A stretch of 64,000 bases of DNA, from contig CP068257.2 of NCBI GenBank assembly GCA_009914755.4, forward strand, positions 1,920,001 to 1,984,000, read 5' to 3'. This DNA is from the human T2T-CHM13v2.0 reference genome, Homo sapiens. Each line of letters starts with the position of its first letter. Position 1 is the stretch's first letter. Below are positions 33,076 through 62,900 of this stretch, one piece after another. The notes beneath the pieces were generated by a model. That model made no database searches. It saw only the letters and a list, made by a program, of their open reading frames with translations, and was not told the DNA's origin. A program made the position numbers and the translations under genes.

Positions 33076-33505
33076 AGCTTTCGGAGCAGCCCGGACAGAG
33101 CTCTCATACCTTTCCACCACCCCACCCCGGCCTGACCACCCCCTCCCGAACCCCGTCTCCCACCCCCGTAAAATGCGTCTTCCCTTAGGCTGGGTGAGGA
33201 CCCACGTCCTTCAAAACCTCGGGCCCACCCAGCCTCCAGGCCTGACAACCCTCCGACGGCTCGCCTCCTCTGAGCCTCCACGCCACCGTCGCCGGCCCGT
33301 CCGTGCCCCTGCAGCCTCCCAGCTGCCACCATGGAGTGTCTGGCGGCGGAACGCAGACTTCTAGCCCTCTTTGCCGGCCTCCTGGCTAGACCTGCGCTCA
33401 TTGCGCACCCCGGCTCGCGTGCAAGGGAGTCCGCTGGCCTCTCTGTGCCCTTGTCCGTCTATGAAATTCCGACTGAGGCTCTCCCAACACCTTCCGATGC
33501 TCTTT
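33076..33505 (+). other. D4Z4-like macrosatellite 3' fragment (region downstream of the DUX4-like ORF plus pLAM-like tail), truncated on its 5' side by the HSat1A array
   Basis: 33,082-33,505 is collinear with 47,513-47,931, by eye about 85-90% identical, e.g. ggagcagcccggacagagctctcatacctttccaccacc vs gggagcagcccaagcagagctctcatgcctttccaccacc. Both end in ccaacaccttccga(t/c)gctctttagtcaaagcctggagaatagttacatctcctggatgatcagttcagaaata. The fragment is GC-rich, in contrast with the flanking AT-rich satellite. Confidence 0.8.
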
Positions 33506-36500
33506 AGTCAAAGCCTGGAGAATAGTTACATCTCCTGGATGATCAGTTCAGAAATACATCACAATGCCCCCTCCCTGCGGAGCCTACAGAAGATTTGCAT
33601 CATTTGGGTGATCAGTGCAGAGATATATCACAATGTCCCCTGTACAAAAAGCATGGAAATGATTTACACCACCTCGGTGATCAGTGCATAGGTATGTCAG
33701 AAATCCCCAGTAGGCTGAACCTAGACAAGGGTTACATCACTTAGGTGATCAGTGTAGAGATATGTGAAAAGTCCCATGTAGACAGAGCCTAGACAAGTGT
33801 TCCATCAGCTAGTGATCAGTGCAGGGATAAGTTGTAAAGCCTACTGTAGGCAGAGTGTAGACAAGTGTTTCCTCCCTGGGGTGATCACTGTAGAGATATG
33901 TCACAAAGCCCCTGTAAGCAGAACCTTGACAAGGGTTACATCACCTGTTTGATCAGTGGAAATGTATATCACAAAGTCCCCTGTAGGCAAAGCCCAGACA
34001 ATTGTTACATCACCTGGGTGAGCAGTGGAGAGATCTGTCACAATGCCCCTGTAGGCAGAGATTAAACAAGGGTTACATCACCTGGGTGATCAGTGCAGAG
34101 ATATGTCAAAACACTCCTGTAGGATGAACCTAGACAGGAGTAACCACCCGGGTGATCAGTGCAGAGATATGTGAGAATTCCCGTGTAGACAGAGTCTAGA
34201 CAAGCGTTACATCACCTAGGTTATAAGTGCAGGTATAAGTAGTAAAGCCTCCTGTAGGCAGAGCGTAGACAAGAGTTCCCTCCCAAGGGTGATAAGTGCA
34301 GAGATGTGTCACAAAGCCCCCATAGGCAGAGCCTAGACAAGAGTTTCATCACTTGGTTGATCAGTTCAGAGATGTGTCAAAATGTCCATGTAGGCAGATC
34401 TAAGACAAGAGTCCATCACCTGTGTGATCAGTGCAGAGATATGTACCAATGTCCCCTGTAGGCAGTGCCTAGACAAGAGTTACATCACCTCAGAGATCAG
34501 TGCATAGATCTGTCACAAAGCCTTCTATAGGCAAACCCATACAAGGCTTACATCATCTAGGTGACCAGCGCAGAGATACGTCACACAAATCCTTGTAGAG
34601 AGAGCCTAGACAAGGGTTACATCACCTAGATGAACACTACAGAGATATTTCACAATATCCCCTGTAGGCAGATCGTAGACAAGAGTTGAATCACCTGGGT
34701 GATCAGTGCAGAGATATTTCACAATGACCCCTATGGGTAGACGGTAGACAAGAGTTACATCACCTAGGTGATCCGTGCAGAGATTTGTCAAAATTCCCAG
34801 TAGGCAGTACTTATAGAAGTGTTACATCACCTAAGTGATCAGTGCAGAGATATGTCACAAAGCTCCTGTAGGCAGAACTTAGATGAGTTATATCACCTGG
34901 GAGATCAGTGCAAAGGTATGTCACAAAGCCCCATGTAGGCAAAGCCTAGACAATAGTTCCATCACTTGGGTGATCAGTGGCGAGATCTCTCACAATTCCC
35001 CTGTAGGTAGAGGTTATACAACAGTTACCTCACCTGGGTGATCAGTGCAGAGATATGTCACAATGCCCCCATAGGAAGATCCAAGACAAGAGTCCGTCAC
35101 CTGGGTGATCAGTGCAGAGATATGTGAGAAATCCCGTGTAGGCAGAGCCTAGACAAGTGTTACATCAACTAGGTTATCAGTGCAGGTATAAGTCATAAAG
35201 CCTCCTATAGGCAGAGCGTAGAAAAGAGTTCCCTCCCCAGGGTGATCAGTGCAGAGATGTGTCACAAAGCCCTGTAGGCAGAGCCTAGACAAGAGATTCA
35301 TCACTTGGTTGATCAGTTCAGAGATGTGTCACAATCTCCATGTAGGCAGATCTAAGACAAGAGTCCATCACCTGGGTGATCAGTGCAGAGATATGGACCA
35401 ATATCCCCTGTAGGCAGTGCCTAGACAAGAGTTGCATCACCTCAGAGATCAGTGCAGAGATATTTCACAAAGCCTTCTGTAGGCAAAGCCCATACAAGGC
35501 TTACATCACCTAGGTGATCAGTGCAGTGATATGTCACAAAAATCCCTGTAGACAGAGACTAGAAAAGAGGTACATCAACTGGGAGATCAGTGCAGATATT
35601 TGACACAATGCCCCCATAGACAGAGCCTAGACAAGACTTCCATCACCTTGGCGATAAGTGCAGAGATATGTCACAAATCCCCCTCTAGGCAGAGTACAGA
35701 GAAGAGTCCCATCACCTGGGTGATCAGTGCAGAGATATTTCACAATGCCCCCTGTGGGCAGAGAGTGGACAAGAGTTACATAACCTAGGTGGTCTGTGCA
35801 GAGCTATATCAAAACGCCCCTGTAGGCAGAGCCTAGATAAATATTACATCACCTGGGTGATCAGTGCAGAGATACGTCACAATAACCCCTGTAGGTGGAG
35901 CCTAGACAAGAGTTACATCAACTGGGTGATCAGTGCAGAGATATGTCACAAAGCCCCTGTAGGCACAGCCTAAAGAAGTGTTACATCACCTGGGTGATCA
36001 GTGAAGAAATATGTCACAAAGCCCCTGTAGGACGAGCCTAGACAAGAGTTGTTACATCTCCTGGGTGATCAGTGCAAAGATATGTCACAAAGCCCCCTGT
36101 AGACAAATCTCAGAAAATTGTTACATCACATGGTTGATCAGTGGAGATATCTGTCAAAATTCCCCTACAGGCGCAGCTTAGACAAGCGTTACATCACATG
36201 AGTGATCATTTCAGAGATATGTCACTATGCCCCCATAGGCAGATCCAAGACAAGAGTCCATCACCTCGGTGATCAGTGCAGATATATGCCACAATGCCAC
36301 CAGTAGGCAGATATAGAGAAAGTTACATCACCTGCGTGATCAAGGCAGAGATATGTCACAATGCCCCTGTAGGCAGAGCCTAGACGAGAGTCCCATCACC
36401 TGGGTGATCAGTGCAGAGTTATGTCACAATGCCCCCTCTTGACAGAGCCTAGAAAATGGTTATATCACCTGGGTGATCAGTGCAGAGATGTGTCACAACA

Positions 36501-39500
36501 CCCCTGTAGCCAGAGCCTAGACCAGAGTTACATCACCTGGGTGATCAGTGCAGAGATATGTCATAAATCCCACTGTAGGCAAAGCCTAGACAAGTTTTAC
36601 ATCACCTCAGCGATCAGTGTAGAAATATGGCCCAATATCCCTCTAGGCAGAGCTTAGACAAGAGTCACATCTCCTGGGTGATCAGTGCAGAGAAAAGTCA
36701 CAATGCCCCCGTAGGCAGAGCATAGACGAGAGTTCCATAACCCGGGTGATCCGTGCAGAGTGATGTCACAACGCCCTCTGTAGGCAGAGACTAGAAAAGA
36801 GTTACATCACCTGGGTGATCAGTGCAGATATATGTCACAATACCCGCTGTAGGCAGAGCATAGAGAAGAGTGGCATCACCTCGGTGATCAGTGCAGATAT
36901 ATGTCACAATGTCCCCTGCAGGCAAAGCCTAGGCAAGAGTTACATCACGTTTGTCATCAGTTTAGGGATATGTGAAAACGCCCCTGTAGGCAGAGCCTAG
37001 ACAAGAGTTACATCACCTAGTTAATCAGTGCAGAGATATTTCACAATACACCCTGTAGGCAGTTACTAGGCAAGAGTTGAATCACCTGGGTGATCAGTGC
37101 AGAGATATTTCACAATGCCCCCTTTGGGCAGAGGGTAGACAAGAGTTACATCACCTAGGTGATCCGTGCAGAGATTTGTCAAAATTCCCTTTGGCAGTGC
37201 TCATAAAAGTGTTACATCACCTAAGTGATCAGTGTAAAGATATGTCACAAAGCTCCTGTAGGCAGAACTTAGATGAGTTACGTCACCTGGGAGATCAGTG
37301 CAAAGGTATGTCACAAAGCCCCATGTAGGCAAAGCCTAGACAATAGTTCCATCACTTGGGTGATCAGTGGCGAGATCTCTCACAATACCCCTGTAGGCAG
37401 AGCTTATACAACAGTTACATCATCTGGATGATCAGTGCAGAGATATGTCACAATGCCCCCATAGGCAGATCCAAGACAAGAGTCCGTCACCTGGGTGATC
37501 AGTGCAGAGATATGTGAGAATTCCCGTGTAGGCAGTGTCTAGACAAGAGTTACATCACCTAGGATATCAGTGCAGGTATAAGTCATAAAGCCTCCTGTAG
37601 GCAGAGCGTAGACAAGAGTTCCCTCCCCAGGGTGATCAGTGCAGAGATGTGTCACAAAGCCCCTGTAGGCAGAGCCTAGACAAGAGTTTCATCACTTGGT
37701 TGATCAGTTCAGAGATGTGTCACAATCTCCATGTAGGCAGATCTAAGACAAGAGTCCATTACCTGGGTGATCAGTGCAGAGATATGTACCAATGTCCCCT
37801 GAAGGCAGTGCCTAGACAAGAGTTGCATCACCTCAGATGTCAGTGCATAGATATGTCACAAAGCCTTCTGTAGGCAAAGCCCATACAAGGCTTACATCAC
37901 CTAGGTGATCAGTGCAGTGATATGTCACAAAAATCCCTGTAGACAGAGCCTAGAAAAGAGTTACATCACCTGGGTGATCAGTGCAGATATTTGACACAAT
38001 GCCCCCATAGACAGAGCCTAGACAAGACTTCCATCACCTGGTTGATCAGTGCAGAGATATGTCACAAATTCCCCTCTAGGCAGAGTATAGAGAAGAGTCC
38101 CATCACCTGGGTGATCAGTGCAGAGATATTTCACAATGCCCCCTGTAGACAGAGAGTGGACAAGAGTTACATAACCTAGGTGATCTGTGAAGAGCTATGC
38201 CAAAACGCCCCTGTAGGCAGAGCCTAGATAAATGTTACATCACCTGGGTGATCAGTGCAGAGATACGTCACAATAACCCCTGTAGGTGGAGCCTAGACAA
38301 GAGTTACATCAACTGGGTGATCAGTGCAGAGATATGTCACAAAGCCCCTGTAGGCAGAGCCTAAACAAGAGTTACATCACCTGGCTGATCAGTGCAGAAA
38401 TATGTCACAAAGCCCCTGTAGGCCCTGCCTAGCCAAGAGTTGTTACCTCTCCTGGGTGATCAGTGCAAAGATATGGCACAAAGCCCCCTGTAGACAAATC
38501 CCAGAAAATTGTTACATCACCTGGGTGATCAGTGGAGATATCTGTCAAAATTCCCCTTCAGGCACAGCTTGGACAAGCGTTACATCCCATGAGTGATCAG
38601 TGCAGAGATAAGTCATTATGCCCCCATAGGCAGATCCAAGACAAGAGTCCATCACCTGGGTGATCAGTGCAGAAATATGTCACAATGTCGACAGTAGGCA
38701 GATACAGACAAGAGTTACATCACCTGCGTGATCACTGCAGAGATATGTCACAATGCCCCTGTAGGCAGAGCCTAGACACGAGTCCCATCACCTGGGCGAT
38801 CAGTGCAGAGTTATGTCACAATGCCCCCTTTTGACAGAGCCTAGAGAAGGGTTACATCACCTGGGTGATCAGTGCAGAGATGTGTCACAAGCCCGCTGTA
38901 GCCAGAGCCTATATATGAGATACACCAGCTATGTGATCAGTGCAGTGACATGTCACAATGTCCCTGTAGCCATATCCTTGAGAAAAGTGACATCACCTCG
39001 GTGATCAGTGCGTAGATATGTCACAATATCTCCAATAGGCAGATTAGACAAGAGTTACATCTCCTGGGTGATCAGGGCAGAGATATGTCACAATGCCCCC
39101 TGTAAGCAGATCCCAGACAAGAGTTGCATCACCTCGGTGATCAGTGCAGTGATATGTCTCAATGCCCCCTGTCGTTGAAGCCTATACAAGAGTAACATCA
39201 TCTCGGTGATCAGTGCAGTGATATGTTAAAATGCCCCTGTAGGCAGAGCCTAGACAAGAGTCACATCACCTGGGTGATCAGTGCAGAGATATCTCACAAT
39301 AACCCCTGTAAGCAGAGCCTACACAACAGTTACAACACCTGGGTGATCAGTGCAGAGATATGTCATAAATCTCACTGTAGGCAAAGCCTAGACAAGTTTT
39401 ACACCACCTCAGCGATCAGTGCAGGGATATGTCCCAATGTCCCTCAAGGCAGAGCTTAGACAAGAGTCACATCTCCTGGGTGATCAGTGCAGAGATAAGT

Positions 39501-42500
39501 CACAATGACCCCGTAGGCAGAGCCTAGACAATAGTTACATAACCCGGGTGATCCGTGCAGAGTCATGTCACAACGCCCTCTGTAGGCAGAGACTAGAAAA
39601 GAGTTACATCACCTTTGTGATCAGTGCAGAGATATGTCACAATGCCCCCTGTAGGCAGAGCATAGAGAAGAGTTGCAACACCTGGGTGATCAGTGCAGAG
39701 ATATGTCACAAAGCTCCTGTAGGCAGAACTTAGATGAGTTACATCACCTGGGAGATCAGTGCAAAGGTATGTCACAAAGCCCCATGTAGGCAAAGCCTAG
39801 ACAACAGTTACATCACTTGGGTGATCAGTGGCGAGATCTCTCACAATTCCCCTGTAGACAGAGCTTATACAACAGTTACATCACCTGGGTGATCAGTGCA
39901 GAGATATGTCACAATGCCCCCATAGGCAGATCCAAGACAAGAGTCCGTCACCTGGGTGATCAGTGCAGAGATATGTGAGAATTCCCGTGTAGGCAGAGCC
40001 TAGACAAGTGTTACATCACCTAGGTTATCAGTGCAGGTATAAGTCATAAAGCCTCCTGTAGGCAGAGCGTAGACAAGAGTTCCCTCCCCAGGGTGATCAG
40101 TGCAGAGATGTGTCACAAAGCCCCTGTAGGCAGAGCCTAGACAAGAGTTTCATCACTTGGTTGATCAGTTCAGAGATGTGTCACAATGTCCACGTAGGCA
40201 GATCTAAGTCAAGACTCCATCACCTGGGTGATCTGTGCAGAGATATGTACCAATGTCCCCTGTAGGCAGTGCCTAGACAAGAGTTGCATCACCTCAGAGA
40301 TCAGTGCAGAGATATTTCACAAAGCCTTCTGTAGGCAAAGCCCATACAAGGCTTACATCACCTAGGTGATCAGTGCAGTGATATGTCAAAAAAATCTCCG
40401 TAGACAGAGCCTAGAAAAGAGGTACATCACCTGGGTGATCAGTGCAGATATTTGACAGAATGCCCCCATAGACAGAGCCTAGACAAGACTTCCATCACCT
40501 TGGCGATCAGTGCAGAGATATGTCACAAATCCCCCTCTAAGCAGAGTACAGAGAAGAGTCCCATCACCTGATTGATCAGTGCAGAGATGTTTCACAATGT
40601 CCCCTGTAGGCAGAGAGTGGACAAGGGTTACATAACCTAGGTGATCTGTGGAGAGCTATGTCAAAACGCCCCTGTAGGCAGAGCCTAGATAAATGTTACA
40701 TCACCTGGGTGATCAGCGCAGAGATAGGTCACAATACCCCTGTAGGTGGAGCCTAGACAAGAGTTACATCAACTGGGTGATCAGTGCAGAGATATGTCAC
40801 AAATCCCTGATAGGCAGAGCCTAGACAAGAGTCCCATCACCTGGGTGATCATTGCAGAGTTATGTCACAAAACCCCCTTTTGACAGAGCCTAGACAAGGG
40901 TTACATCACCTGGGTGATCATTGCAGAGATGTGTCACAAGCCCCCTGTAGCCAGAGCCTGGAAAAGAGTTACATCTGCTGTGTGATCAGTGCAGTGACAT
41001 TTCACAATGTCCCTGTAGCCATATCCTTGAGAAAAGTGACATCACCTGGGTGATCAGTGCGGAGATATATCACATTGTCTCCAGTAGGCAGAGCCTAGAC
41101 AAGAGTTACATCACCTGGGTGATCAGGGCAGAGATATGTCACAATGACCCCTGTAAGCAGATATGAGACAAGAGTTGCATCACCTCGGTGATCAGTGCAG
41201 ATTTATGTCTCAATGCACCTTTTCAGCGAAGCCTATACAAAAGTTACATCATCTCGGTGATCAGTGCAGTGATATGTTAAAATGCCCCTGTAGGCAGAGC
41301 CTAGACAAGAGTTACATCACCTGGGTGATCAGTGCAGAGATATCTCATAATACTCCCTTTAAGCAGAACCTAGACAAGAGTTACATCACCTGGGTGATTA
41401 ATGCAGAGATATGTCATAAATCCCACGTAGGCAAAGCCTAGACAAGTTTTATATAACCTCAGCGATCAGTGCAGAGATATGTCCCAATGTCCCTCTAGGC
41501 AGAGCTTAGAAAAGGGTCACACCTCCTGAGTGATCAGTGCAGAGATAAGTCACAATGCCCCCATAGGCAGAGCCTAGAGGAGAGTTACATAACCCTGGTG
41601 ATCCGTGCAGAGTGATGTCACAACGCCCTCTGTAGGCAGAGACTAGAAAAGAGTTACATCACCTGGGTGATCAGTGCAGAGATATGTCACAATGCCCCCA
41701 GGAGGCAGAGCATAGAGAAGAGTTGCATCACATGGGTGATCAGTGCAGAGATATGTCAAAATGTCCCCTGTAGGCAGAGTATAGAGAAGAGTTGCATCAC
41801 ATGGGTGATCAGTGCAGAGATATGTCAGAATGTCCCCTGTAGGCAGAGCATAGAGAAGAGTTGCATCACCTGGGTGATCAGTGCGGAGATATGTCACAAT
41901 GTCCCCTGTAGGCAAAGCCTAGGCAAGAGTTGCATCACCTAGGTGATCAGTGCAGATATATGTCCAATGTCCCCTGTAGGCAAAGCCTAGGCAAGAGTTA
42001 CATCACCTTTGTCATCAGTTCAGGGATATGTGAAAATGCCCCTGTAGGCAGAGGCTAGAGAAGAGTTACATCACTTTGTTGATCAGTGCAGATATGTTTC
42101 ACAATACCCCCTGTAGGCAGATCTTAGACAAGAGTTGAATCACCTTGGTGATCAGTGCAGAGATATTTCACAATGCCCCCTTTGGGCAGAGGGTAGACAA
42201 GAGATACATCACCTAGGTGATCCGTGCAAAGATTTGTCAAATTTCCCTGAAGGCAGTGCTTATGAAAGTGTTACATCAGCTAAGTGATCAGTGCAGAGAT
42301 ATGTCACAAAGCTCCTGTAAGCAGAATTTAGATGAGTTACATAACCGGGTGATCATTGCACAGGTATGTCACAAAGCCCCCTGTAGGCAAAGCCTAGACA
42401 ATAGTTCCATCACTTGGGTGATCAGTGGCGAGGTCTCTCACAATTCCCCTGTAGGCAGAGCTTATACAAGAGTTACATCACCTAGGTGATCAGTGCAGAG

Positions 42501-45160
42501 ATATTTCACAATGCTCTTGCAGGCAGAGCGTAAGCAAGAGTTACATCACCTAGATGATCAGCGCAGAGATATGTCACAAGGCCCCCTATAGGCAGAGCCT
42601 GGACAAGAGTTACATCACCTCGGTGATCAATGCAGCGATATGTCACTATGACCCGTAGGCAGAGCCTAGTCAAGCGTTACATCACCTGGGTGATCAGTGC
42701 ACATATATGTCACAAAGCCCCCATACACAGAGCCTAGACGAGAGTCCCATCACCTGGGTATTCAGTGCAGAGTTCTGTCACAAATTCCCTTTAGGCAGAT
42801 CCTAGACAAGTGTTACATCACTTGGATGATCAGTGTAAAGATATGTCACAATGTCACTGTAGGCAGAGTCTAGACAAGAGTTACATGACGTAGGTGATCA
42901 GTGCAGAGATACATCGCAATGTCCCTGTAGGCAGAGCCTTGACAAGTGGTACATCACCTGGGTGATCATTGCAGGGATATGTCACAAATCACCCTGTAGG
43001 CAGATCCTAGAAAAGAGTTACATCACCTAGGTGATCAGTGCAGAGATTTGTCAAAATTCCCTGTGGGCAGTGCTTATATAAGTGTTGCATCACCTAAGAG
43101 ATCAGTGCAGAGATACGTCACAAAGCTCCTGTAGGCAGAATTTAGATGAGTTTACATCACCTCGGTGATCAGTGCAAAGCTATGTCACAAATCCCCTGTA
43201 GGCAAAGCCTAGACAATAGTTACATCACTTGTGTGATCAGTGGTGAGATCTCTCACAATTCCCCTGTCGGCAGAGATTATACAATAGTTACATCACCTGG
43301 GTGATCAGTGCAGAGATATGTAACAGTACCCCCATAGGCAGATCCAAGACAAGAGTCCGTCACCTGGGTGATCAGTGCAGAAATATGTCACAAAGCCCCC
43401 TTAGGCAGAGCCTAGACAAAAGACCCATCACCTGGATGATTAGTGCAGAGTTATGTCACAAAGTCCCTTTAGGCAGATCTTAGACAAGAGTTACATCACT
43501 TGGATGATCAGTGCAGAGATATGTCACAATGCCAATGTAAGCAGAGCCTAGATAAGTGTTACATGACCTAGGTGAACACTGCAGGGATACATCGCAATGT
43601 CCCTGTAGGCAGAGCCTTGACAAGTGGTACATCACCTGGGTGATCATTGCAGGGATATGTCACAAGGCACCCTGTAGGCATATCCTAGAAAAGAGTTACA
43701 TCACCTGGGTGATCAGTGCAGAGATATGTCACAATGCCACTGTAGGCAGAGCCTAGACAAGAGTTACATGACCTAGGTGATCAGTGCAGAGATACATCGC
43801 AATGCCCCTGTAGGTAGAGCCTTGGCAAGTGGCATATCACCTGGGTGATCATTGCAGGGATATGTCACAAGGCACCCTGTAGGCATATCCTAGAAAAGAG
43901 TTACATCACCTGGGTGATCAGTGCAGAGATATGTCACAATGCCACTGTAGGCAGAGCCTAGACAAGAGTTACATGACCTAGGTGATCAGTGCAGAGATAC
44001 ATCGCAATGCCCCTGTAGGCAGAGCCTTGAAAAGTGGTATATCACCTGGGTGATCATTGCAGGGATATGTCACAAAGCACCCTGTAGGCAGATCCTAGAG
44101 AAGAGTTATATCACCTGAGTGATCAGTGCAGAGATATGTCACAAGCCCCCTGTAGGCAGAGCCTAGACAAGAGTTATATCACCTGGGTGATCAGTGCAGT
44201 GATATGTCACAATGCCGTGCAGCCAGATCCTAGACTAAATTTACAGCACCTGGGAGATCAGTGCAGAGATATGTCACAATGTCCCCAGTAGGCAGAGACC
44301 AGGCAAGAGTTGGATCACCTCGGGATCAGTGCAGAGATATGTCTCAATCCCCCTGTGGGCACAGCCTAGACAAGAGTTACATCACCTAGGTTAACAGTGC
44401 AGAGATATGTCGAAATGCCCTGTAGGCAGAACCTACACAAGTGTTACATCACTTAGGTAATCAGTGCAGAGATATGTCACAATACCCCCTGTAAGCAGAG
44501 CCTAGACAAGAGTTAGATCACCTGGGTGAACAATGAAGAGATATGTGGCAACGCCCCTTTAAGCAGAGCCTAGACAATAGTTACATCACCTGAGTGATCA
44601 GTGCAGAGATCTGTCACAATGCCCCTTTAGGCAGAGCTCAGAACAGAGTTACATCACCTGGGTGATCAGTGCGGATATATGTCACAATGCCCCCATAGGC
44701 AAATCCAAGACAAGGGTCTGTCACCTGGGTGATCAGTGCAGAAATATGTGACAATGCCCCCAGTAGGCAGAGCCAAGAGAAGAGTCCCACTACCTGGGTG
44801 ATCAGTGCAGAGATATGTGACAAGGACCCTTTAAGAAGAACCTAGACTATAGTTACATCACCTGAGTGATCAGTGCAGAGATCTGTCACAATGACCCTTT
44901 AGGCAGAGCTTAGACCAGAGTTACATCACCTGCGTGATCAGTGCAGAGATATTTCACAATGCCCCCATAGGCAGATCCAACACAAGAGTTACATCACCTG
45001 GGTGATCCGTGTAGAGATATGTCACAATGCCCCCATAGGCATAGCCTAGAAAAAAGTCCCATCACCTGGGTGATCAGTGCAGAGATATGTCACAAAGTCC
45101 CAGTAGGCAGAGCCTAGACAAGGTTTACATCACTTTGTTGATCAGTTCCGAGATGTGTCA
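33506..45160. repeat. Beta satellite (68-bp Sau3A family) array, block 1
   Basis: It consists of 68-bp monomers of the form catcacctgggtgatcagtgcagagatatgtcacaatgcccctgtaggcagagcctagacaagagttacatcacc, each with one GATC. About 2.4-kb HOR copies lie at roughly 35.1-42.4 kb: track peptides 35600/37991 and 36421/38813 repeat at 2391-2392 bp. A 204-bp trimer sub-HOR occupies 43,540-44,160. Confidence 0.9.
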
Positions 45161-47931
<2,771 letters not shown>

Positions 47932-50900
47932 TAGTCAAAGCCTGGAGAATAGTTACATCTCCTGGATGATCAGTTCAGAAATATGTCACAATGCCCTCTC
48001 CATGCGGAGCCTAGAGAAGATTTGCATCTTTTGGGTGATCAGTGCAGAGATATTTCACAATGTCCCCTGTTCTAAAAGCCTGGAAATGATTTACATCACC
48101 TCGGTGATCAGTGCATAGGTATGTCAGAAATCCCCAGTAGGCTGAACCTAGACAAGGGTTACATCACTTAGGTGATCAGTGTAGAGATATGTGAAATTTC
48201 CCATGTAGACAGAGCCTAGACAAGTGTTACATCTCCTAGTGATCTGTGCAGGGATAAGTCGTAAAGCCTCTTGTAGGCAGAGTGTAGACAAGTGTTTCCT
48301 CCCTGGGGTGATCAGTGCAGAGATATGTCACAAAGCCCCTGTAAGCAGAACCTTCACAAGGGTTACATCACCTGTTTGATCAGTGGAAATATATATCACA
48401 AAGCCCCCTGTAGGCAAAGACCAGACAATTGTTACATCACCTGGGTGAGCAGTGGAGAAATCTGTCACAATGCCCTTGTAGGCAGAGCTTAGACAAGGGT
48501 TACATCACCTGGGTGATCAGCGCAGAGATATGTCAAAACGCTCCTGTAGGCTGAACCTAGACAGGAGTTACATTACCTGTGTGATCAGTGCAGAGATATC
48601 TGAGAATTCCCGTGTAGGCAGAGCCTAGACAAGACTTACATCACCTAGGTTGTCAGTGCAGGTATAAGTCATAAAGCCTCCTGTAGACAGAGCATACACA
48701 AGAGTTCCCTCCCCAGGGTGATCAGTGAAGAGATGTGTCACAAAGCCCCTGTAGGCAGAGCCTAGACAAGAGTTTCATCACTTCGTTGATCAGTTCAAGA
48801 TATGTCACAATGTCCATGATGCCAGATCTAAGACAAGAGTCCATCACCTGGGTGATCAGTGCAGAGATATGTACCAATGTCCCCTGTAGGCAGTGCCTAG
48901 ACAAGAGTTGCATCACCTCAGAGATCAGTGCATAGGTATGTCACAAACCCTTCTGAAGACAAAGCCCATACAAGGCTTACATCAACTAGGTGATCAGTGC
49001 AGTGATATGTCACAAAAATCCCTGTAGACAGAGCCTAGAAAAGAGTTACATCACCTGGGTGATCAGTGCAGATATTTGACACAATGCCCCCATAGACAGA
49101 ACCTAGACAAGGCTTCAATCTCTTGGGTGATCAATGCAGAGATATGTCACAAAACGCCCTCTAGGCAGAGTATAGAGAAGAGTCCCATGACCTGGGAGAT
49201 CAGTGCAGAGATATTTCACAATACTCCTGTAGGCAGACAGTGGACAAGAGTTACATAACCTAGGTGATCTGTGCAGAGCTATGTCAAAACGCCCCTGTAG
49301 GCAGAGCCTAGATAAATGTTACATCTCCTGGGTGATCAGTGCAGACATACGTCACAATACCCCCTGTAGGTGGAGCCTAGACAAGAGTTACATCACCTGG
49401 GTGATCGATGCAGAGATATGTCACAAAGCCCCTGTAGGCCGAGCCTAGACAAGAATTACATCTCCTGGGTGATCAGTGCAAACATATGTCACAAAGCCCC
49501 CTGTGGACAAATCCCAGAAAATTGTTACATCACCTGGGTGATCAGTGGAGTTATCTGTCACAATTCCCTTCTAGGCGCAGCTTAGACAAGCGTTACATCA
49601 CATGAGTGATCAGTGCAGAGATATGTCACTATGACCCCATAGGCAGATCGAAGACAAGAGTCCATCACCTGGGTGATCAGTGCAGAGATATGTCATAAAT
49701 ACCACAGTAGGCAAAGCCTAGACAAGTTTTACATCAGCTGGGTGATCATTGCAGAAATATGTCCCAATGTCCCTCTAGGCAGAGCTTAGACAAGAGTCAC
49801 ATCTCCTGGGTGATCAGTGCAGGGATAAGTCACAATGCCCCAGTAGGCAGAGCCTAGACAAGAGTTACATAACCCGGGTCAACCGTGCAGAGTGATGTCA
49901 AAAGGCCCTCAGTAGGCAGAGCCTAGACAAGAGTTACATAACCCGGGTGATCCGTGCAGAGTGATGTCACAACGACCTCTGTAGGCAGAGACTAGAAAAG
50001 AGTTACATCACCTGGGTGATCAGTGCAGAGATATTTCTCAACGCCCCCTTTGGGCAGAGGGTAGACAAGAGTTATATCACCTAGGTGATCAGTGCAGAGA
50101 TTTGTCAAAATTCCCTGTAGGCAGTGCTTATAAACGTGTTACATCACATAAGTGATCAGTGCAGAGATATGCCACAAAGCTCCTGTAGGCAGAACTTAGA
50201 TGAGTTACATCACCTGGGTGATCAGTGCAAAGTTGTGTCACAAAGCCCCCTATAGGCAAAGCCTAGACAATAGTTACATCACTTGGGTGATCAGTGGCGA
50301 GATCTCTCACAATTACCCTGTAGGCAGCAGAGCTTATACAACCGTTACATCATCTGGGTGATCAGTGCAGAGGTATGTCACAATGCCCCCATAGGCAGAT
50401 CCAAGACAGGAGTCCATCACCTGGGTGATCAGTGCAGAAATATGTCACAATGCCCCCTTAGGCAGAGCCTACACAAAAGCCCCATCACCTGGATGATCAG
50501 TGCAGGGTTATGTCACAAAGTCCCCTTAGGCAGATTGTAGACAAGAGTTACATCACTTGGATGATCAGTGCAGAGATATGTCACAATGCCACTGTAGACA
50601 GAGTCTAGACAAGAGTTACATGACCTAGGAGATCAGTGCAGAGATACATCGCAATGTCCCTGTAGGCAGAGCCTTGACAAGTGGTACATCACCTGGGTGA
50701 TCATTGCAGGGATATATCACAAAGCACCCTGTAGGCAGATACTAGAAAAAAGTTACAGCACCTGGGTGGTCAGTGCAGAGATATGTCACGATGCCATTGT
50801 AGGCAGAGCCTAGGCAAGAGTTAAATGACCTAGGTGATCAGTGCAGAGATACATCACAATGCCCCTGCAGGCAGAGCCTTGACAAGTGGTATATCACCTG

Positions 50901-52148
50901 GGTGATCATTGCAGGGATATGTCACAAAGCACCCTGTGGGCAGATCCTAGAGAAGAGTTATATCACCTGGGTGATCAGTGCAGAGATATGTCACAAGAAC
51001 CCTGTAGGCAGAGCCTAGACAAGTGTTATATCACCTGGGTGATCAGTGCAGTGATATGTCACAATGCCGTGTAGCCAGAGCCTAGACTAAAGTTACAGCA
51101 CCTAGGAGATCAGTGCAGAGATATGTCACAATGTCCCCAGTAGGCAGAGACCAGGCAAGAGTTGGATCACCTCGGGATCGGTGCAGAGATATGTCTCAAT
51201 CCCCCTGTGGGCACAGCCTAGACAAGAGTTACATCACCTCAGTGAACAGTGCAGAGATCTGTCAGGATGCCCCTGTAGGCAGAGCCTACACAAGTGTTAC
51301 ATCACTTTGGTGATCAGTGCAGAGATATGTCACGATACCCCCTGTAAGTAGAGACTACACAAGAGTTACATCACCTGGGTGGTCAGTGCAGAGATATGTG
51401 GCAACGCCCCTTTAAGCAGAGCCTAGACAATAGTTACATCACCTGAGTGATCAGTGCAGAGATCTGTCACAATGCCCTTTTAGGCAGAGCTTAGACCAGA
51501 GTTACATCACCTGGGTGATCAGTACAGAGACATGTTACAATGCCCCCATAGGCAAATCCTAGACAAGAGTCCGTCACCTGGGTGATCAGTGTAGAAATAT
51601 GTGACAATGCCCAAGGAGGCAGAGCCTAGAAAAGAGTCCCATCACCTGGGTGATCAGTGCAGAGATATTTCACAATGCTCCTGCAGGCAGAGCATAAGCA
51701 AGAGTTACATCACATAGATGATCAGTGCAGAGATTTATCACAAGGCCCCCTATAGTCAGAGGCTCGACAAGAGTTACGTCACCTCGGTTATCAATGCAGT
51801 GATATGTCACTATGCCTCATAGGCAGAGCCTAGTCAAGCGTTACATCACCTGGGTGATCAGTGCAGAGATATGTCACAAAGCCCCCATACACAGCGCCTA
51901 GACAAGTGTCCCATCACCTGGGTGATCAGTGCAGAAATATGTCACAATGCCCCCATAGGCAGATCCAACACAAGAGTTACATCACCTGGGTGATCAGTGT
52001 AGAGATATGTCACAATGCCCCCATAGGCAGAGCCTAGACAAAAGTCCCATCACCTGGATGATCAGTGCAGAGATATCTTCCAAAGCCCCTGAAGGCAGAG
52101 CCTAGAGAAAAGTAACATCACTTTGTTGATCAGTTCAGAGATGTGTCA
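47932..52148. repeat. Beta satellite array, block 2
   Basis: 68-bp GATC-containing monomers. The first roughly 1.05 kb (47,932-48,985) is collinear with 33,506-34,560, continuing the duplication of about 1.48 kb (33,082-34,560 vs 47,513-48,985) that begins in the D4Z4-like 3' region, at a constant offset of about 14.42 kb; by eye about 93% identical. Confidence 0.9.
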
Positions 52149-52870
52149 TGCTGACTGTTTGCTCCCGGAGCTCTGCGGGCACCCGGAAACATGCAGGCAA
52201 GGTGGAAGACTGGCATTGTGCCTTCGCTCTCCTTGCCAGTTTACAAAACTGCCACACCGAAGACTCCCCATGTTGCCGCACACGGGAATCCATCATCAGT
52301 CCATCACGCTGGGGAGGCATCTTCTCTCTGGGGTCTCGCTCTGGTCTCCTACGTGGAAATGAACGAGAGCCACACGCCTGCCCCTGTGACACTGTCCCAG
52401 CAACGGCGACACCCACAGGCACTGCCACCTTCACGGAGAGAGGGCCTGGAACACAGCAGACTCCCACGGAGATTCAGTCCCACACTCCCCTCCACCCTCC
52501 CAGGCCGGTTTCTCCCTGCTGAAGACGCGTGGGAGCCCAGAGAGCAGCTTCCAGTTCCCGCCTGATTCCTGGAGAGGTCGGCAGAGCCAGCCCCGGAAAC
52601 GCGCCCCTCTCACCACTTCCCCCTCGCCCCCTTCATCTTCGTATCTCCAGCCCCACCACCGCCATCACCACACCCTCCCCCCCAATACAACCACCCCACA
52701 GCCCCAGGCCTCGACGCCCTGGGACCCTTCCGGGGTGGGGCGTGCTGTCCCAGGGCTCACCGCCATTCATGAAGGGGTGGAGCCTGCCTGCCTGCAGGCC
52801 TTCATAATAGCCGCTGGCTGGCTGTCCGGGCAGGCCTCCTGGCTGCACCTGCCGCAGTCCACAGGCTGGA
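52149..52870 (+). other. D4Z4-like 5' fragment (upstream region only, about 720 bp), truncated about 75 bp before the position of the DUX4-like ATG
   Basis: It begins with the same junction as the other copies (..gatcagttcagagatgtgtca|tgctgactgtttgctcccggagctctgcgggcacc) and is collinear with 45,161-45,881. It ends at ..cacctgccgcagtccacaggctgg and then goes straight into beta satellite (atgagatatttcacaaagccttctgtaggcaaagcc). Confidence 0.8.
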
Positions 52871-54631
52871 TGAGATATTTCACAAAGCCTTCTGTAGGCA
52901 AAGCCCATACAAGGCTTACATCACCTAGGTGATCAGTGCAGTGATATATCAAAAAAATCCCTGTAGACAGAGCCTAGAAAAGAGGTACATCACCTGGGTG
53001 ATCAGTGCAGATATTTGACACAATGCCCCCATAGACAGAGCCAAGACAAGACTTCCATCACCTTCGTGATCAGTGCAGAGATATATCAAATATCCCCCTC
53101 TAGGCAGAGTGTAGAGAAGAGTCCCATCACCTGGGTGATCAGTGCAGAGATATGTGAGAATTCCCGTGTAGGCACAGCCTAGACAAGTGTTACATCACCT
53201 AGGTTATCAGTGCAGGTATAAGTCGTAAAGCCTCCTGTAGGCAGAGCATAGACAAGAGTTCCCTCCCCAGGGTGATCAGTGCAGAGATGTGTCACAAAGC
53301 CCCTGTAGGCAGAACCTAGACAAGAGTTACATCACCTGGGTGATCAGTGCAGAGATATGTCCCAATGCCACTGTAGGCAGAGCCTAGAGAAGAGTTACAT
53401 GACCTAGGAGATCAATGCAGAGATACATCGCAATGCCCCTGTAGGCAGAGCCTTGACAGGTGGTATATCACCTGGGTGACCATTGCAGGTATATGTCACA
53501 AAGCACCCTGTAGGCAGATCCTAGAGAAGAGTTGTATCACCTGGGTGATCAGTGCAGTGATATGTCACAAGCACCTTTAGGCAGAGCCTAGACAAGAGTT
53601 ATATCACCTGGGTGATCAGTGCAGTGATATGACACAATGCTGTGTAGCCAGAGCCTAGACTAAAGTTACAGCACCTGGGAGATCAGTGCAGAGATATGTC
53701 ACAATGTCCCCAGTAGGCAGAGAACAGGCAAGAGTTGGATCACCTCGGGATCAGTGCAGAGATATGTCTCAATCCCCTTGTGGGCACAGCCTAGACAAGA
53801 GTTAAATCACCTCGGTTAACAGTGCAGAGATATGTCAAAATGCCCCTGTAGGCAGAGCCTACACAAGTGTTACATCACCTGGGTGATCAATGCAGAGATA
53901 TGTGACAAGGCCCCTTTAAGCAGAACCTAGACAATAGTTACATCACCTGGGTGATCAGTGCAGAGATCTGTCACAATGCCCCTTTAGGCAGAACTTAGAC
54001 CAGAGTTACATCATTTGGGTGATCAGTGCAGTGATATGCCACAATACCCCCATAGGCAAATCCAAGACAAGAGTCCATCACCTGTCACAATTCCCCCAGG
54101 TGGCAGAGCCTAGAGAAGAGTCCCATCACCGGGGTGACCAGTGCAGAGATATTTCACAATGCCCCTGTAGGCAGAGTGTAAGCAAGAGTTACATCACCTA
54201 GATGATCAGTGCACAGATATGTCACAAGGCCCCCTATAGGCAGAGCCTGCACAAGAGTTACATCACCTCGGTGATAAATGCAGTGATATGTCACTATGCC
54301 CGTAGGCAGAGCCTAGTCAAGCACTAAATCAAATGGGTGATCAGTGCAGAGATATGTCACAAAGCCCCCATACACAGAGCCTAGACAAGAGTCCCATCAC
54401 CTGGGTGATCAGTGCAGAAATATGTCACAATGCCCCCATAGGCAGATCCAACACAAGAGTTACATCACCTGGGTGATCAGTGTAGAGATATGTCACAATG
54501 CCCGCATAGGCAGAGCCTAGACAAATATCCCGTCACCTGGGTGATCAGTGCAGAGATATGTCACAAAGCCCCTGTAGGTAGAGACTAGACAAGTGTTACG
54601 TCACTTTGTTGATCAGTTCCGAGATGTGTCA
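52871..54631. repeat. Beta satellite array, block 3
   Basis: 68-bp GATC monomers. The order matches parts of the 35-kb HOR with an internal deletion of about 1.6 kb (35,455-35,775, then a jump to the 35,120-type). Confidence 0.85.
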
Positions 54632-59970
<5,339 letters not shown>

Positions 59971-62900
59971 CACTACAGCCTGTGTGACAGAGGGAGACCC
60001 TGTTGAAAGAAAGGAGTGGAATGGAAGGGATTGGAATGGAATGGAATGGATTGGAATGCAGTGGAGTGGAATTGAGTGTAGTGGAGTGGAGTGCAGTGGA
60101 ATGGAATGGAATGGAATAGTGAAATGAAAAGTGAGCTGAGATTGTGCCACTGCACACCAGCCTTGGTGACAGAGTGAGATACTGTCAAAAGAAAGTACTG
60201 GAATGGAATGGAGTGGAATGGAATGGAATGGAGTGGAATGGAATGTAATGGAGTTGAGAGCAGTGGAGTGGAGTAGAAAGGAGTGGAATGGAATGGGATG
60301 GAAAGAAAAGGACTGGAGTGGATTGGGCTGGGTTGGAGTGGAGTGGAATGGATTGGAGTGGAGTGGAGTGGAATTTAATGGAGTAGAATACAATGGAATG
60401 GTGAAATGAAATGTGAGCTGAGATTCTGCCACTGCGCTCCAGGCTGGGTGACAGAGTGAGATACTCTCGAAAGAAAGGAATGGAATTGAATGCAGTGGAA
60501 TGGAATGGAATGGATTGGAGTGGAGTGGAGTGGAGTGGAGTGGAGTGAAATAGAGAGGAATGGAATGGGATGGAATGGAATGTAAAGGAATGGTGAAAAT
60601 AAATGTGAGCTAAGATTGTGCCACTGCACTGCAGCCTCTGTGACAGAGTGAGATCCTTTGGAAAGAAAGGAAAGGAATGGTATGGAATGGAATGGAGTGG
60701 AGTGGAGTGGAGTGGCGTGGAATGGAATGGAATGGAATGGAATGGAATGGAATGGAATGGAGTGGAATGTAATGGAATGGACTGGAATGGAATACAATGG
60801 AATGCAATGGAATAGAATGCAGTGAAATGGAATGTTGACATGTAATGTGAACAGAGATTGTGCCACTGCACTCCAGCCTGGGTGACACAGTGATATCCTG
60901 TCGAAAGAAAGGAATGGAATGCAATGGAGTGAAACGGAATGGAATGGAATGGAGTGGAGAGGAGTGGAGTGGAGTGGAGTAAAGTGGAGTGGAGTGGAAG
61001 GCAATGGATTGGAATAGGGTGGAGAGGAATGGAATGGAGTGGAATGGAATGGGAGGGAACGGAGTGGAGTGGAGTGGAGTGGAATGAAGAGTAACGGAGT
61101 GGAGTGGAGTGGAATGCAATCGAATGGAATGTAATTGAAAGGAATGAAATGGAGTGGAATGGAATGAAATGGAATGGAGTGGAGTGGAATGGAGTGGAGT
61201 GGAATGGAGTGGAGTGGAGAGGAATGGAGTGGATAGGAGTGGAATGGAGTGGAGTGGAGTGGAATGGAATGGAGAGGAATTGAACGGAATAGAGTGGAAT
61301 GGAGTGGAAAAGAGTGGAATGGAATGTAGTGGAATGAAATGGAGTGGAGTGGACTGGAGTATAGTGTAATGGAATGCAGTGGAATGCAATGTAGTGTAAT
61401 AGAATGGAATGGAATGGAACGGAATGGAATGGAATGGAATGAAATGGTGAAAAGAAATGTGTGCTGAGACTGTGCAAATGCACTACAGCCCGTGTGACAG
61501 AGGGAGATCCTGTCGAAAGAAAGGCGTGGAATGGAAGGGATTGGAATGGAATGAATTGGACTGGAGTGGAGTCGAATTGAGTGGAGTGGAGTGGAGTGGA
61601 GTGCAGTGGAATAGAATGGAATGGAATGGAATGCTGAAGTGAAATGTGAGATGAGACTGTGCCACTGCACACCAGCCTGGGTGACAGAGTGAGATTCTGT
61701 CAAAAGAAAGGAATGGAATGGAATGGAGTGGAATGGAATGGAGTGGAGTGGAGTGGAGTGGAGTGGAAAGGAGTGGAATGGCGTGGGATGGAATGGAGTG
61801 GAGTGGAGTAGACTGGAATGGAGTGGAGTGGAGTGGAGTGGAATGGATTGGAGAGGAGTGGAGAAGAGTGGAGTGGAGTCGAATGGAATGGAATGGAATG
61901 AAATCGTGAAATGAAATGTGACCCGAGATTTTGTCACTGCGCTCCAGGCTGGGTGACAGAGTGAGATTCTTTCAAAAGAAAGCAATAGAATGGAATGCAG
62001 TGGAATGGAATGGAGTGGAATGGAGTGGGGTGAAGTGGAGTGGACTGGAATGGGATGGAATGGAGTGGAATGAAATGGAGATGAGTGGGGTGGAGGGGAT
62101 TGCAGTGGAATGGAGCAGAATGGAATGGGATGGAATGGAATGGAGTGGAGTGCAGTCGAGAGGAGAGGAGTGGAATGGAGTGGAATGGCATCGGATATAA
62201 TGGAATTAAGTGGAGTGGAGTGGAGTGGAATGGAGTGGTATGGAATGGAATTGAATGGAATGGAATGGAATGGTGAAATGAAATGTGATCTAAGATTGTG
62301 CCACTGAACTCCAGTCTGGTTGACAGAGTGAGATCTAGTAGAAATAAAGGAATGGAATGGAATGGAGTAGAATGGAATGGAATGGAGTGCAGTGCAGTGG
62401 AATGGAGTAGAGTGGAATGGAGTTGAGTGGAAGGGAGTGGAATGGAATGGCATGGAATGGAGTGGAATGGAATTGAATGGAGTTGAACGGAATGGAATAG
62501 AATGAAATGGAATGCAGTGAAATGAATTGGACTAGAATTGAATGGATTGGAGTGGAGTGGAGTGGAATCGAGTGGAGTGCTATGGAATGGAATGGAGTGG
62601 AGTGGGGTGGAGTGGAATGGAAAGGAGTGGAGTGGAATGGAGTGGAGTGGAATGGAATGGGAAGGAGTGGAGTGGAATGGAATGGCATGGAATGGAGTGG
62701 AATGGAATGGAGTGGAGTGGAGAGGAGTAGAATTGAATGGACTGGAGCGGAATGGAGTGGAGTAGAATGGAATGGAAAGGGAAGGAATGGAATGGAATGG
62801 AATGGAATAGAGTACAATGGAATGGAATGGAGTGGAATGGAATGGAGTGGGGTGGAGTGGAGTGCAGTGGAGTGGAATGGAGTGAAATGCAGTGGAGTGG

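What the first reader, a model, noticed from the sequence alone, without database searches (positions are those of the whole stretch)
45128..45175. All three D4Z4-like 5' ends enter beta satellite at exactly the same nucleotide of the same monomer variant
The junctions at 45,160/45,161, 52,148/52,149 and 54,631/54,632 all read ..catcactttgttgatcagttc(c/a)gagatgtgtca|tgctgactgtttg(a/c)tcc... Each is preceded by the same monomer series of about 430 bp (44,700-45,130, 51,660-52,120, 54,130-54,600). This points to one ancestral D4Z4-beta-satellite junction that was later amplified as part of a beta-satellite macro-repeat, and not to three separate insertions. The 3' ends differ: a complete unit, a cut about 75 bp before the ATG, and a cut after homeodomain 2. 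That implies later deletions, probably by exchange between beta-satellite monomers and D4Z4-internal sequence.
Basis: seen in the sequence. Interest (0 to 1): 0.55.

Follow-up and report, generated by a model that had tools for sequence, protein, structure and literature searches.

The report
Family-wide D4Z4–beta-satellite junction, already known
The three DUX4-containing (D4Z4-like) repeat pieces do start at the same base of the same beta-satellite monomer, but this junction is the standard 5' end of a known, genome-wide human repeat family (the LSAU–beta-satellite composite), so the finding is correct but ordinary.

Summary
The 22-mer GATGTGTCA|TGCTGACTGTTTG occurs exactly three times, at 45160/61, 52148/49 and 54631/32. 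Each time it joins position 57 of a distinctive 68-bp beta-satellite monomer to the same D4Z4 base. A 2-nt CA microhomology leaves the exact breakpoint ambiguous.

The single-origin reading is supported, but at genome scale rather than locally. Among 121 D4Z4 5' ends in 120 human-derived contigs from public metagenomes, 114 carry the identical junction and monomer variant. The other 7 continue into full-length D4Z4. This matches the published '5'-truncated D4Z4–pLAM' class (319 versus 13 full copies in T2T-CHM13) of the LSAU–BSAT composite.

The three window copies are 87–88% identical to each other, about 93–94% identical to the family consensus, and share almost no derived changes. They are therefore old, independent family members, not recent local duplicates.

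- D1 is a complete family element of 2771 bp that ends in pLAM-like sequence.
- D2 and D3 are 3' deletion derivatives with GAG and GTG microhomologies.

Novelty: already known. Interest is low.

The parts
33083..33504 (+). D0: fourth D4Z4-like fragment. It is the 3' end only (D positions 2350-2771, including the pLAM-like tail). Its 5' end abuts the 42-bp AT-rich satellite and its 3' end runs into beta satellite.
   Evidence: blastn against D1: 83.6% over 422 bp, E 6e-130; sequence read
33505..45160 (+). Beta-satellite block 1 (68-bp monomers). It holds uninterrupted 'empty-site' monomers of the junction type (CACTTGGTTGATCAGTTCAGAGATGTGTCA^CAAT) starting at 34350, 35302, 37693 and 40154.
   Evidence: TRF period 68, 170.8 copies; motif search and sequence context
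45104..45160 (+). Junction monomer J1: beta-satellite monomer positions 1-57, carrying the diagnostic variants CACTTTGTTGATCAGTTC and GATGTGTCA. The last 2 nt (CA) are microhomology with D4Z4.
45161..47931 (+). D1: complete beta-satellite-embedded D4Z4–pLAM element (2771 bp). The DUX4 pseudogene has its ATG at 45957, a stop at codon 19 and another stop after homeodomain 2. The KpnI-equivalent GGTACC is at 47447-47452. The pLAM-specific tail is 47786-47931.
   Evidence: DUX4 structures 6u81/6e8c E 4e-69; two Pfam homeodomains
47932..52148 (+). Beta-satellite block 2. The first monomers (a1, a2) are homologous to the 4qA pLAM/exon 3 region. The position of the 4qA ATTAAA poly(A) signal reads GTCACA (47985-47990). 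An uninterrupted junction-type monomer carries its motif at 48779. The block ends in junction monomer J2 (52092-52148).
   Evidence: TRF; 85.6% identity over 97 aligned positions to the published 4qA pLAM oligo; conserved a1-a6 series
52149..52874 (+). D2: 5' fragment of the element (D positions 1-727). It is cut 70-73 bp before the ATG position and joined to beta satellite through a GAG microhomology (52872-52874).
52872..54631 (+). Beta-satellite block 3, collinear with 50415-52148. It ends in junction monomer J3 (54575-54631).
54632..55957 (+). D3: 5' fragment of the element (D positions 1-1327). The broken DUX4 reading frame has its ATG at 55427. The cut lies about 24 codons after homeodomain 2, joined to beta satellite through a GTG microhomology (55955-55957).
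55955..59970 (+). Beta-satellite block 4. It contains an uninterrupted junction-type monomer (motif at 57375).

Best explanation
The window is a stretch of the human LSAU–beta-satellite (LSAU-BSAT / LSAU-BETA) composite repeat, lying between a 42-bp AT-rich satellite and a GGAAT satellite.

Its D4Z4-like pieces belong to the common '5'-truncated D4Z4–pLAM' element. That element has 2625 bp shared with the canonical D4Z4 unit plus a 146-bp pLAM-like tail, and beta satellite on both sides.

The 5' junction was made once. Position 57 of one particular beta-satellite monomer type was joined, through a 2-nt CA microhomology, to a point about 956 bp 3' of the D4Z4 KpnI site. That single joint was then copied together with the element and its neighbouring beta satellite, by tandem and segmental duplication and by unequal exchange.

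Later events in this window:
- Exchange inside the beta satellite changed spacer lengths and replaced everything upstream of the last monomer.
- Two copies lost their 3' parts through deletions of about 3-3.7 kb with 3-nt microhomology (D2, D3).
- One copy was cut at its 5' side at the border with the 42-bp satellite (D0).

Shown directly: junction identity, its family-wide spread, the empty-site monomer, the deletions, and the star-like divergence.

Inferred, at roughly 40% confidence: the joint is the novel junction of a tandem duplication of a 4qA-like chromosome end (D4Z4–pLAM–six monomers–junction-type monomer). This would explain the 467-bp spacer (6×68+57, plus 2) and the resulting 3238-bp composite unit.
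For: - The junction is identical in the three copies and is not expected by chance.
- The same junction occurs in 114 of 121 external D4Z4 5' ends. The other 7 run on into D4Z4 sequence ...GGTGGCCA|TGCTG. The 106 external junction-bearing segments long enough to compare form 42 sequence types at 99%.
- Element anatomy. Most contigs carry D positions 1-2771 flanked by beta satellite. Canonical tandem units consist of D positions 1-2625 plus a unique segment of about 620 bp (X), which is absent from the window.
- Uninterrupted monomers with the same diagnostic variants exist in the window and in L012. They show what the unbroken target looked like.
- The beta satellite after pLAM is a conserved a1-a6 series in 44 of 51 loci. 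The 467-bp spacer is a1-a6 plus monomer positions 1-57.
- The D1 3' flank is 85.6% identical to the published 4qA pLAM sequence.
- DUX4 identity is confirmed.
- Divergence is star-like.
- The deletion model for D2 and D3 is supported.
- Independent assemblies reproduce the structures: L046 at 99.4% and L054 at 96.6% end to end.
- Literature: 319 5'-truncated versus 13 full copies in T2T-CHM13, located in LSAU-BSAT regions (PMC10620044); the LSAU-BETA composite on 16 chromosomes, with 80-95% identity in centromere transition regions (bioRxiv 10.1101/2021.07.12.451456); co-amplification of DUX genes and beta satellite (PMC2671837).
Against: - The external sample was selected with a pattern that requires D positions 1-27. 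D4Z4 fragments with other 5' ends, such as D0 here or the inverted fragment in L043, cannot be counted. The figure of 114/121 therefore says nothing about them.
- Many contigs are short-read assemblies of human contamination. They may be collapsed consensus sequences, and the same loci may be sampled from many people. One cluster holds 62 of the 106 segments.
- No human reference genome was available, so chromosome assignment and identity to the 4q array were not measured.
- The tandem-duplication origin is not distinguished from an insertion or translocation into beta satellite followed by amplification. The upstream monomers in the window are not the a5-a6 series that the simplest form of that model predicts, so later exchange has to be invoked.
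Confidence: 0.88

Rival explanations
1. Recent local amplification. The three junctions are copies made within this locus by duplication of a local macro-repeat (beta satellite plus D4Z4). This is the narrow reading of the first reader's proposal.
For: The J2 and J3 flanks are collinear for about 1.7 kb with a period of about 2.48 kb. J1 and J3 share a C at 45149/54620 that, among external contigs, occurs only in the two that correspond to these same loci.
Against: The D segments are 87-88% identical to each other but 93-94% identical to the family consensus. They share only 1-3 derived sites out of 42-50. The J2/J3-type upstream series is at least as similar (93-100% per monomer) in contigs from other loci, for example L024 and L109. 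The junction is present genome-wide.
Confidence: 0.06
2. Independent, site-specific insertions. A mobile D4Z4/DUX4 element repeatedly integrated at the same position of a preferred beta-satellite monomer.
For: DUX4 is regarded as a retrogene in the literature (PMC12376486 abstract). The target monomer type recurs many times in the array.
Against: There is no target-site duplication. The 5' flank ends at monomer position 57 and the 3' flank starts at position 1 of a different, conserved monomer series. The element's 5' end is an internal point of the D4Z4 unit, not a transcript or element terminus. Flanking monomers are co-inherited on both sides. The element encodes no integration machinery (only homeodomains were found).
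Confidence: 0.03
3. Several original junctions were homogenised. Different D4Z4/beta-satellite joints existed and gene conversion or concerted evolution later replaced them with a single version.
For: Beta satellite and D4Z4 arrays on acrocentric arms are thought to exchange sequence (general knowledge). One very homogeneous subfamily dominates the sample (62 of 106 segments).
Against: The diverged copies (85-88% identity) carry the same joint as the homogeneous ones. Conversion tracts would have to span the joint every time while leaving 12% divergence on the D4Z4 side.
Confidence: 0.03

Closest known systems
'Truncated_5'' D4Z4–pLAM repeats of T2T-CHM13 (Butterfield et al. 2023, Genome Res, PMC10620044)
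   Same: [quoted passage not shown] It is interspersed with beta satellite, and the copies are diverged and carry DUX4 pseudogenes. The window junction maps to about KpnI+956, and the ~620-bp segment X is absent.
   Different: The paper gives a length class and a copy number (319), not the nucleotide-level joint, the monomer variant or the empty-site monomer. D2, D3 and D0 are further-truncated derivatives of this class.
LSAU-BSAT / LSAU-BETA composite repeat annotation (Hoyt et al., bioRxiv 10.1101/2021.07.12.451456)
   Same: LSAU/D4Z4 subunits alternate with 68-bp beta satellite, both as arrays and as single monomers. Within-array identity is 80-95% in centromere transition regions. The window copies are 87-88% identical and lie between two other satellites.
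   Different: Spacers here are irregular (11.7, 4.2, 1.8 and 4.0 kb) rather than forming a regular tandem unit. The regular 3238-bp unit with a 467-bp spacer was seen only in external contigs.
Distal end of the 4qA D4Z4 array (last partial unit – pLAM – beta satellite)
   Same: The 3' junction of D1 and D0 (D position 2625, then the pLAM-like tail, then monomer a1) is the same arrangement. The window is 85.6% identical to the published 4qA pLAM sequence around the DUX4 poly(A) signal.
   Different: The window reads GTCACA where 4qA has ATTAAA, so it has no poly(A) signal. The DUX4 reading frame is broken. There are no tandem 3.3-kb units upstream. No beta-satellite|D4Z4 5' joint is described at 4q35 (from memory; not tested here).
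DUXY locus on Yq11 (Schmidt et al. 2009, PMC2671837)
   Same: It is an imperfect tandem of LSAU and beta satellite carrying DUX genes. Length variation is confined to the beta-satellite blocks. The authors propose an ancestral DUX–beta-satellite cassette that was duplicated and transposed.
   Different: The chromosomal setting is different. No DUXY sequence was available to test whether it carries the same joint.

Membership tests
5'-truncated D4Z4–pLAM element / LSAU–BSAT composite | D4Z4 homology including the DUX4 double homeobox | tested here: met
   The D1 translation matches DUX4 structures 6u81/6e8c at E 4e-69 over both homeodomains. Pfam Homeodomain matches twice.
5'-truncated D4Z4–pLAM element / LSAU–BSAT composite | [quoted passage not shown] | tested here: met
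   In full-length contigs (L072, L107, L041 and others) about 620 bp of unique sequence lies between D position 2625 and the junction point. With 336 bp from the KpnI site to position 2625, the junction falls at about 956 bp. That 620-bp segment has no match anywhere in the window.
5'-truncated D4Z4–pLAM element / LSAU–BSAT composite | 3' end in pLAM-like sequence that continues into beta satellite | tested here: met
   D1 and D0 end in the pLAM-like tail. The window is 85.6% identical to the published 4qA pLAM oligo sequence. D2 and D3 lack this end because of deletion.
5'-truncated D4Z4–pLAM element / LSAU–BSAT composite | Interspersed with 68-bp beta-satellite blocks | tested here: met
   TRF reports a period of 68 for the blocks at 33505-45160, 47932-52148, 52872-54631 and 55955-59970.
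5'-truncated D4Z4–pLAM element / LSAU–BSAT composite | Location on acrocentric short arms, 1q12 or other pericentromeric regions, and about 90% identity to 4q D4Z4 | not testable with these tools
   No human reference genome or 4q35 sequence was available. The flanking 42-bp AT-rich and GGAAT satellites fit such a setting only by general knowledge.
Canonical D4Z4 macrosatellite (4q35/10q26 type) | Head-to-tail 3.3-kb units, each containing the segment between the pLAM divergence point and the promoter-proximal region | tested here: not met
   The window has no adjacent D4Z4 units and no copy of the ~620-bp segment X.
Canonical D4Z4 macrosatellite (4q35/10q26 type) | Intact DUX4 open reading frame | tested here: not met
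   D1 has a stop at codon 19 and another after homeodomain 2. D3 has stops and frameshifts.
Transposable-element-type insertion | Target-site duplication and defined element termini | tested here: not met
   The 5' flank ends at monomer position 57. The 3' flank starts at position 1 of a different conserved monomer series. No duplication of the target was found.

The most novel reading that the evidence does not exclude
The CA-microhomology joint between position 57 of one identifiable beta-satellite monomer type and D4Z4 is the founding joint of a tandem duplication of a 4qA-like chromosome end (D4Z4–pLAM–a1..a6–junction-type monomer; primordial unit 3238 bp). On this reading, the whole acrocentric and pericentromeric LSAU–BSAT family descends from a 4qA-type terminus. 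The joint and its recognisable empty site would then be a single datable marker for tracing that expansion through primates.
Probability: 0.35. Interest if true: 0.35.

Novelty: already known. Interest (0 to 1): 0.15.

Why it matters
The finding adds little beyond bookkeeping. It confirms at nucleotide level that the abundant beta-satellite-embedded D4Z4 copies share one origin. It also gives a precise diagnostic joint (…GATCAGTTCAGAGATGTGTCA|TGCTGACTGTTTG…) that separates them from 4q/10q D4Z4. This could help with read assignment in FSHD long-read or methylation assays, where these divergent copies are a major off-target (PMC10620044). It does not change current understanding of D4Z4 or of beta satellite.

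Tried and rejected
- A megablast self-comparison at 88% identity with word size 24 gave no hits, because monomer divergence breaks long words. I replaced it with blastn at word size 16.
- A first anchored alignment with free end gaps slipped out of register. I redid it anchored at the junction.
- I tested whether the ~620-bp D4Z4 segment missing from the element is degenerate beta satellite or pLAM-like. It is not; only chance 13-17-mers matched.
- I tested whether contigs of about 3.2-3.5 kb are circularly overlapping assemblies of a tandem unit. Only L041 has a terminal overlap. The evidence for the 3238-bp unit therefore rests on four contigs that span two elements with a 467-bp spacer.
- My first translation coordinates were off by one base and hit stop codons. 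The ATG is at 45957.
- The Hoyt et al. Science paper could not be fetched under the PMC id I recalled, so I used the bioRxiv version.
- The bacterial, phage and plasmid collections and the RNA tools were not used, because this is human satellite DNA.

Full report
**Window layout**

Tandem Repeats Finder and blastn divide the window as follows.

| Coordinates | Content |
|---|---|
| 1-33075 | 42-bp AT-rich satellite |
| 33083-33504 | D0, a D4Z4-like 3' fragment |
| 33505-45160 | 68-bp beta satellite |
| 45161-47931 | D1 (2771 bp) |
| 47932-52148 | beta satellite |
| 52149-52874 | D2 |
| 52872-54631 | beta satellite |
| 54632-55957 | D3 |
| 55955-59970 | beta satellite |
| from about 60200 | GGAAT-type satellite |

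All D pieces and all beta-satellite blocks are in the same orientation. The D pieces are DUX4-related. The D1 translation across both homeodomains matches DUX4 crystal structures at E 4e-69 and gives two Pfam homeodomain hits. The reading frames are broken.

**Checking the observation**

The 22-mer that spans the joint, GATGTGTCA|TGCTGACTGTTTG, occurs exactly three times, at the stated coordinates. None is expected by chance, even with three mismatches allowed. In the multiple alignment the last monomer and the start of D4Z4 are in register without gaps. D1, D2 and D3 are collinear from their first base at 87-88% identity.

The beta-satellite side stops at position 57 of the 68-bp monomer. That monomer carries unusual variants: CACTTTGTTGATCAGTTC and GATGTGTCA, where the consensus has CACCTGGGTGATCAGTGC and GATATGTCA.

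Both parental sequences can be read elsewhere. The uninterrupted monomer of the same type reads ...GATGTGTCA|CAATGTCCATG. Full-length D4Z4 reads ...GGTGGCCA|TGCTGACTG. The two share CA, so the breakpoint is ambiguous by two bases.

The claim of a common 430-bp monomer series is only partly right.
- Background in-phase identity between beta-satellite segments is 77%.
- The last 204 bp are 92-93% identical in all three pairs, above the 99th percentile of background.
- J1 drops to background from about the fourth or fifth monomer upstream and becomes similar again further out.
- J2 and J3 stay collinear for about 530 bp tightly and about 1.7 kb loosely.

**The same junction elsewhere**

I scanned public metagenome contigs with a pattern taken only from the D4Z4 side (TGCTGACTGTTTGNTCCNNGAGCTCTG). 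They are evidently human contamination in human-associated samples.

Of 121 occurrences, 114 are preceded by beta satellite ending in the same monomer variant at the same base. The other seven are preceded by D4Z4 sequence. The 106 junction-bearing external segments long enough to compare (-90..+300) fall into 42 sequence types at 99% identity, with one homogeneous cluster of 62.

Two contigs are counterparts of the window itself.
- L046 matches 44688-48520 at 99.4%.
- L054 matches 48172-58430 end to end at 96.6%, including both truncated copies.

The structures are therefore not assembly artefacts.

**Anatomy of the element**

Most contigs carry the full D1-type element (D positions 1-2771) with beta satellite on both sides. 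In contigs with canonical head-to-tail D4Z4, D position 2625 is followed by about 620 bp of unique, non-satellite sequence and then by D position 1. This segment is absent from the window.

The KpnI-equivalent site is at D position 2287-2292, so the junction lies about 956 bp into the KpnI-defined unit. [quoted passage not shown] That class has 319 copies against 13 full copies in T2T-CHM13, located in LSAU-BSAT regions of the acrocentric chromosomes and pericentric chromosome 1 (PMC10620044).

The 3' end of D1 and D0 is the 4qA-type arrangement. The window at 47941-48037 is 85.6% identical to a published 4qA pLAM sequence around the DUX4 poly(A) signal. That sequence is itself recognisably the first beta-satellite monomers (72% to the monomer consensus). 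The window reads GTCACA where 4qA has ATTAAA.

**Beta-satellite context and the likely founding event**

The beta satellite after pLAM is a conserved series of six monomers (a1-a6). It is present in 44 of 51 loci and after D1 in the window.

In four contigs the next element follows after 467 bp. That spacer is a1-a6 plus positions 1-57 of the junction-type monomer, which gives a 3238-bp composite unit. In L012 the same series ends in an intact junction-type monomer followed by more beta satellite. In the window, intact monomers of this type have their motifs starting at 34350, 35302, 37693, 40154, 48779 and 57375.

I infer, at moderate confidence, that the joint arose as the novel junction of a tandem duplication of a D4Z4–pLAM–beta-satellite end. 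Exchange within the beta satellite later replaced the sequence upstream of the last monomer. This would explain why only that monomer is shared family-wide, while longer upstream series define subfamilies. An insertion or translocation into beta satellite followed by amplification is not excluded.

**Age and relationship of the three copies**

Each window copy is 93-94% identical to the family consensus over the first 720 bp, but only 87-88% identical to the other two. They share just 1-3 of their 42-50 derived changes. This is a star-like pattern. The copies separated near the time of the family's expansion and are not recent local duplicates. It agrees with the 80-95% within-array identity reported for LSAU composites in centromere transition regions (bioRxiv 10.1101/2021.07.12.451456).

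**3' ends**

D2 stops at D position about 727, which is 70-73 bp before the ATG position. It is joined to beta satellite through GAG. D3 stops at about position 1327, roughly 24 codons after homeodomain 2, and is joined through GTG.

Their 3' flanks match beta satellite lying 1004 and 2228 bp downstream of pLAM in intact L042-type units. That implies simple deletions of about 3.05 and 3.7 kb. Three bases of microhomology indicate non-homologous or microhomology-mediated joining, not homologous exchange.

**Comparison with what is known, and verdict**

All testable defining features of the 5'-truncated D4Z4–pLAM / LSAU–BSAT family are met. The features of the canonical 4q/10q array are not met. 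[quoted passage not shown]

The nucleotide-level description of the joint, its 2-nt microhomology and its empty-site monomer was not in any of the papers I read. It is a refinement of a known picture, not a new kind of feature.

The main limitation is ascertainment. The external search required the first 27 bases of the element, and no reference genome was available. Other kinds of 5' end, such as D0 here, therefore could not be counted.

Noticed in passing
It covers D positions 2350-2771 including the pLAM-like tail, at 83.6% identity to D1. Its 5' end abuts the 33-kb 42-bp AT-rich satellite directly, and its 3' end starts the 11.7-kb beta-satellite block.
   Followed up: partly
window 47805-47931 versus 45847-45985 (also 33373-33468 and 55318-55423): The pLAM-specific tail is a diverged partial copy of the DUX4 promoter-proximal region and first codons. 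It is about 75% identical over about 105 bp (E about 1e-14), and then reads CTCCCAACACCTTCCGAC against the ORF's CCCTCCCAACACCTTCGGAC, with the ATG region missing. The D4Z4-to-beta-satellite 3' joint would then lie at about codon 9-10 of a relic partial unit. I did not check whether this is published.
   Followed up: partly
window 47985-47990: The position that corresponds to the 4qA DUX4 poly(A) signal ATTAAA lies inside the first beta-satellite monomer after D1. It reads GTCACA, the normal beta-satellite sequence, so this copy has no such signal.
   Followed up: yes
window motif starts 34350, 35302, 37693, 40154, 48779, 57375: Uninterrupted beta-satellite monomers carrying the same diagnostic variants as the junction monomer (CACTTGGTTGATCAGTTCAGAGATGTGTCA followed by CAATGTCCATG). 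These are 'empty-site' versions. Spacings of about 2.4 kb among some of them suggest a higher-order repeat.
   Followed up: partly
window 45149 and 54620 (versus 52137): J1 and J3 share a C (GTTCCGAG) where J2 and nearly all external loci have A. Among the external contigs this C occurs only in the two that correspond to these same loci (L046, L054). It is either a hint of a closer J1-J3 relationship or a parallel change.
   Followed up: no
L054 (OOQC01000110.1) versus window 48172-58430: A 10.3-kb contig from an unrelated assembly reproduces the whole beta-satellite–D2–beta-satellite–D3–beta-satellite block, but at only 96.6% identity. The block with both truncated copies therefore exists in at least two diverged versions, either paralogous loci or deep haplotypes.
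   Followed up: partly
L009, L102, L108, L118 (external contigs): A regular composite unit of about 3238 bp: the 2771-bp element plus a 467-bp spacer of exactly six monomers plus 57 bp. It is probably the main homogeneous subfamily, since 62 of the 106 sampled segments are within 1% of each other.
   Followed up: partly
L072 6805-12794, L107 523-4145: Short canonical-type D4Z4 arrays (two units, with the ~620-bp segment between them) embedded in beta satellite. The first unit starts at the same beta-satellite joint.
   Followed up: no
window 59971-60015 and recurring at about 187-192-bp spacing within 60310-61820: Fragments resembling the 3' end of an Alu element (…GCCACTGCACACCAGCCTTGGTGACAGAGTGAGATACTGTCAAAAGAAAG…; recognised from memory, not tested). 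One sits at the border between beta satellite and the GGAAT satellite, and others recur inside the GGAAT satellite.
   Followed up: no
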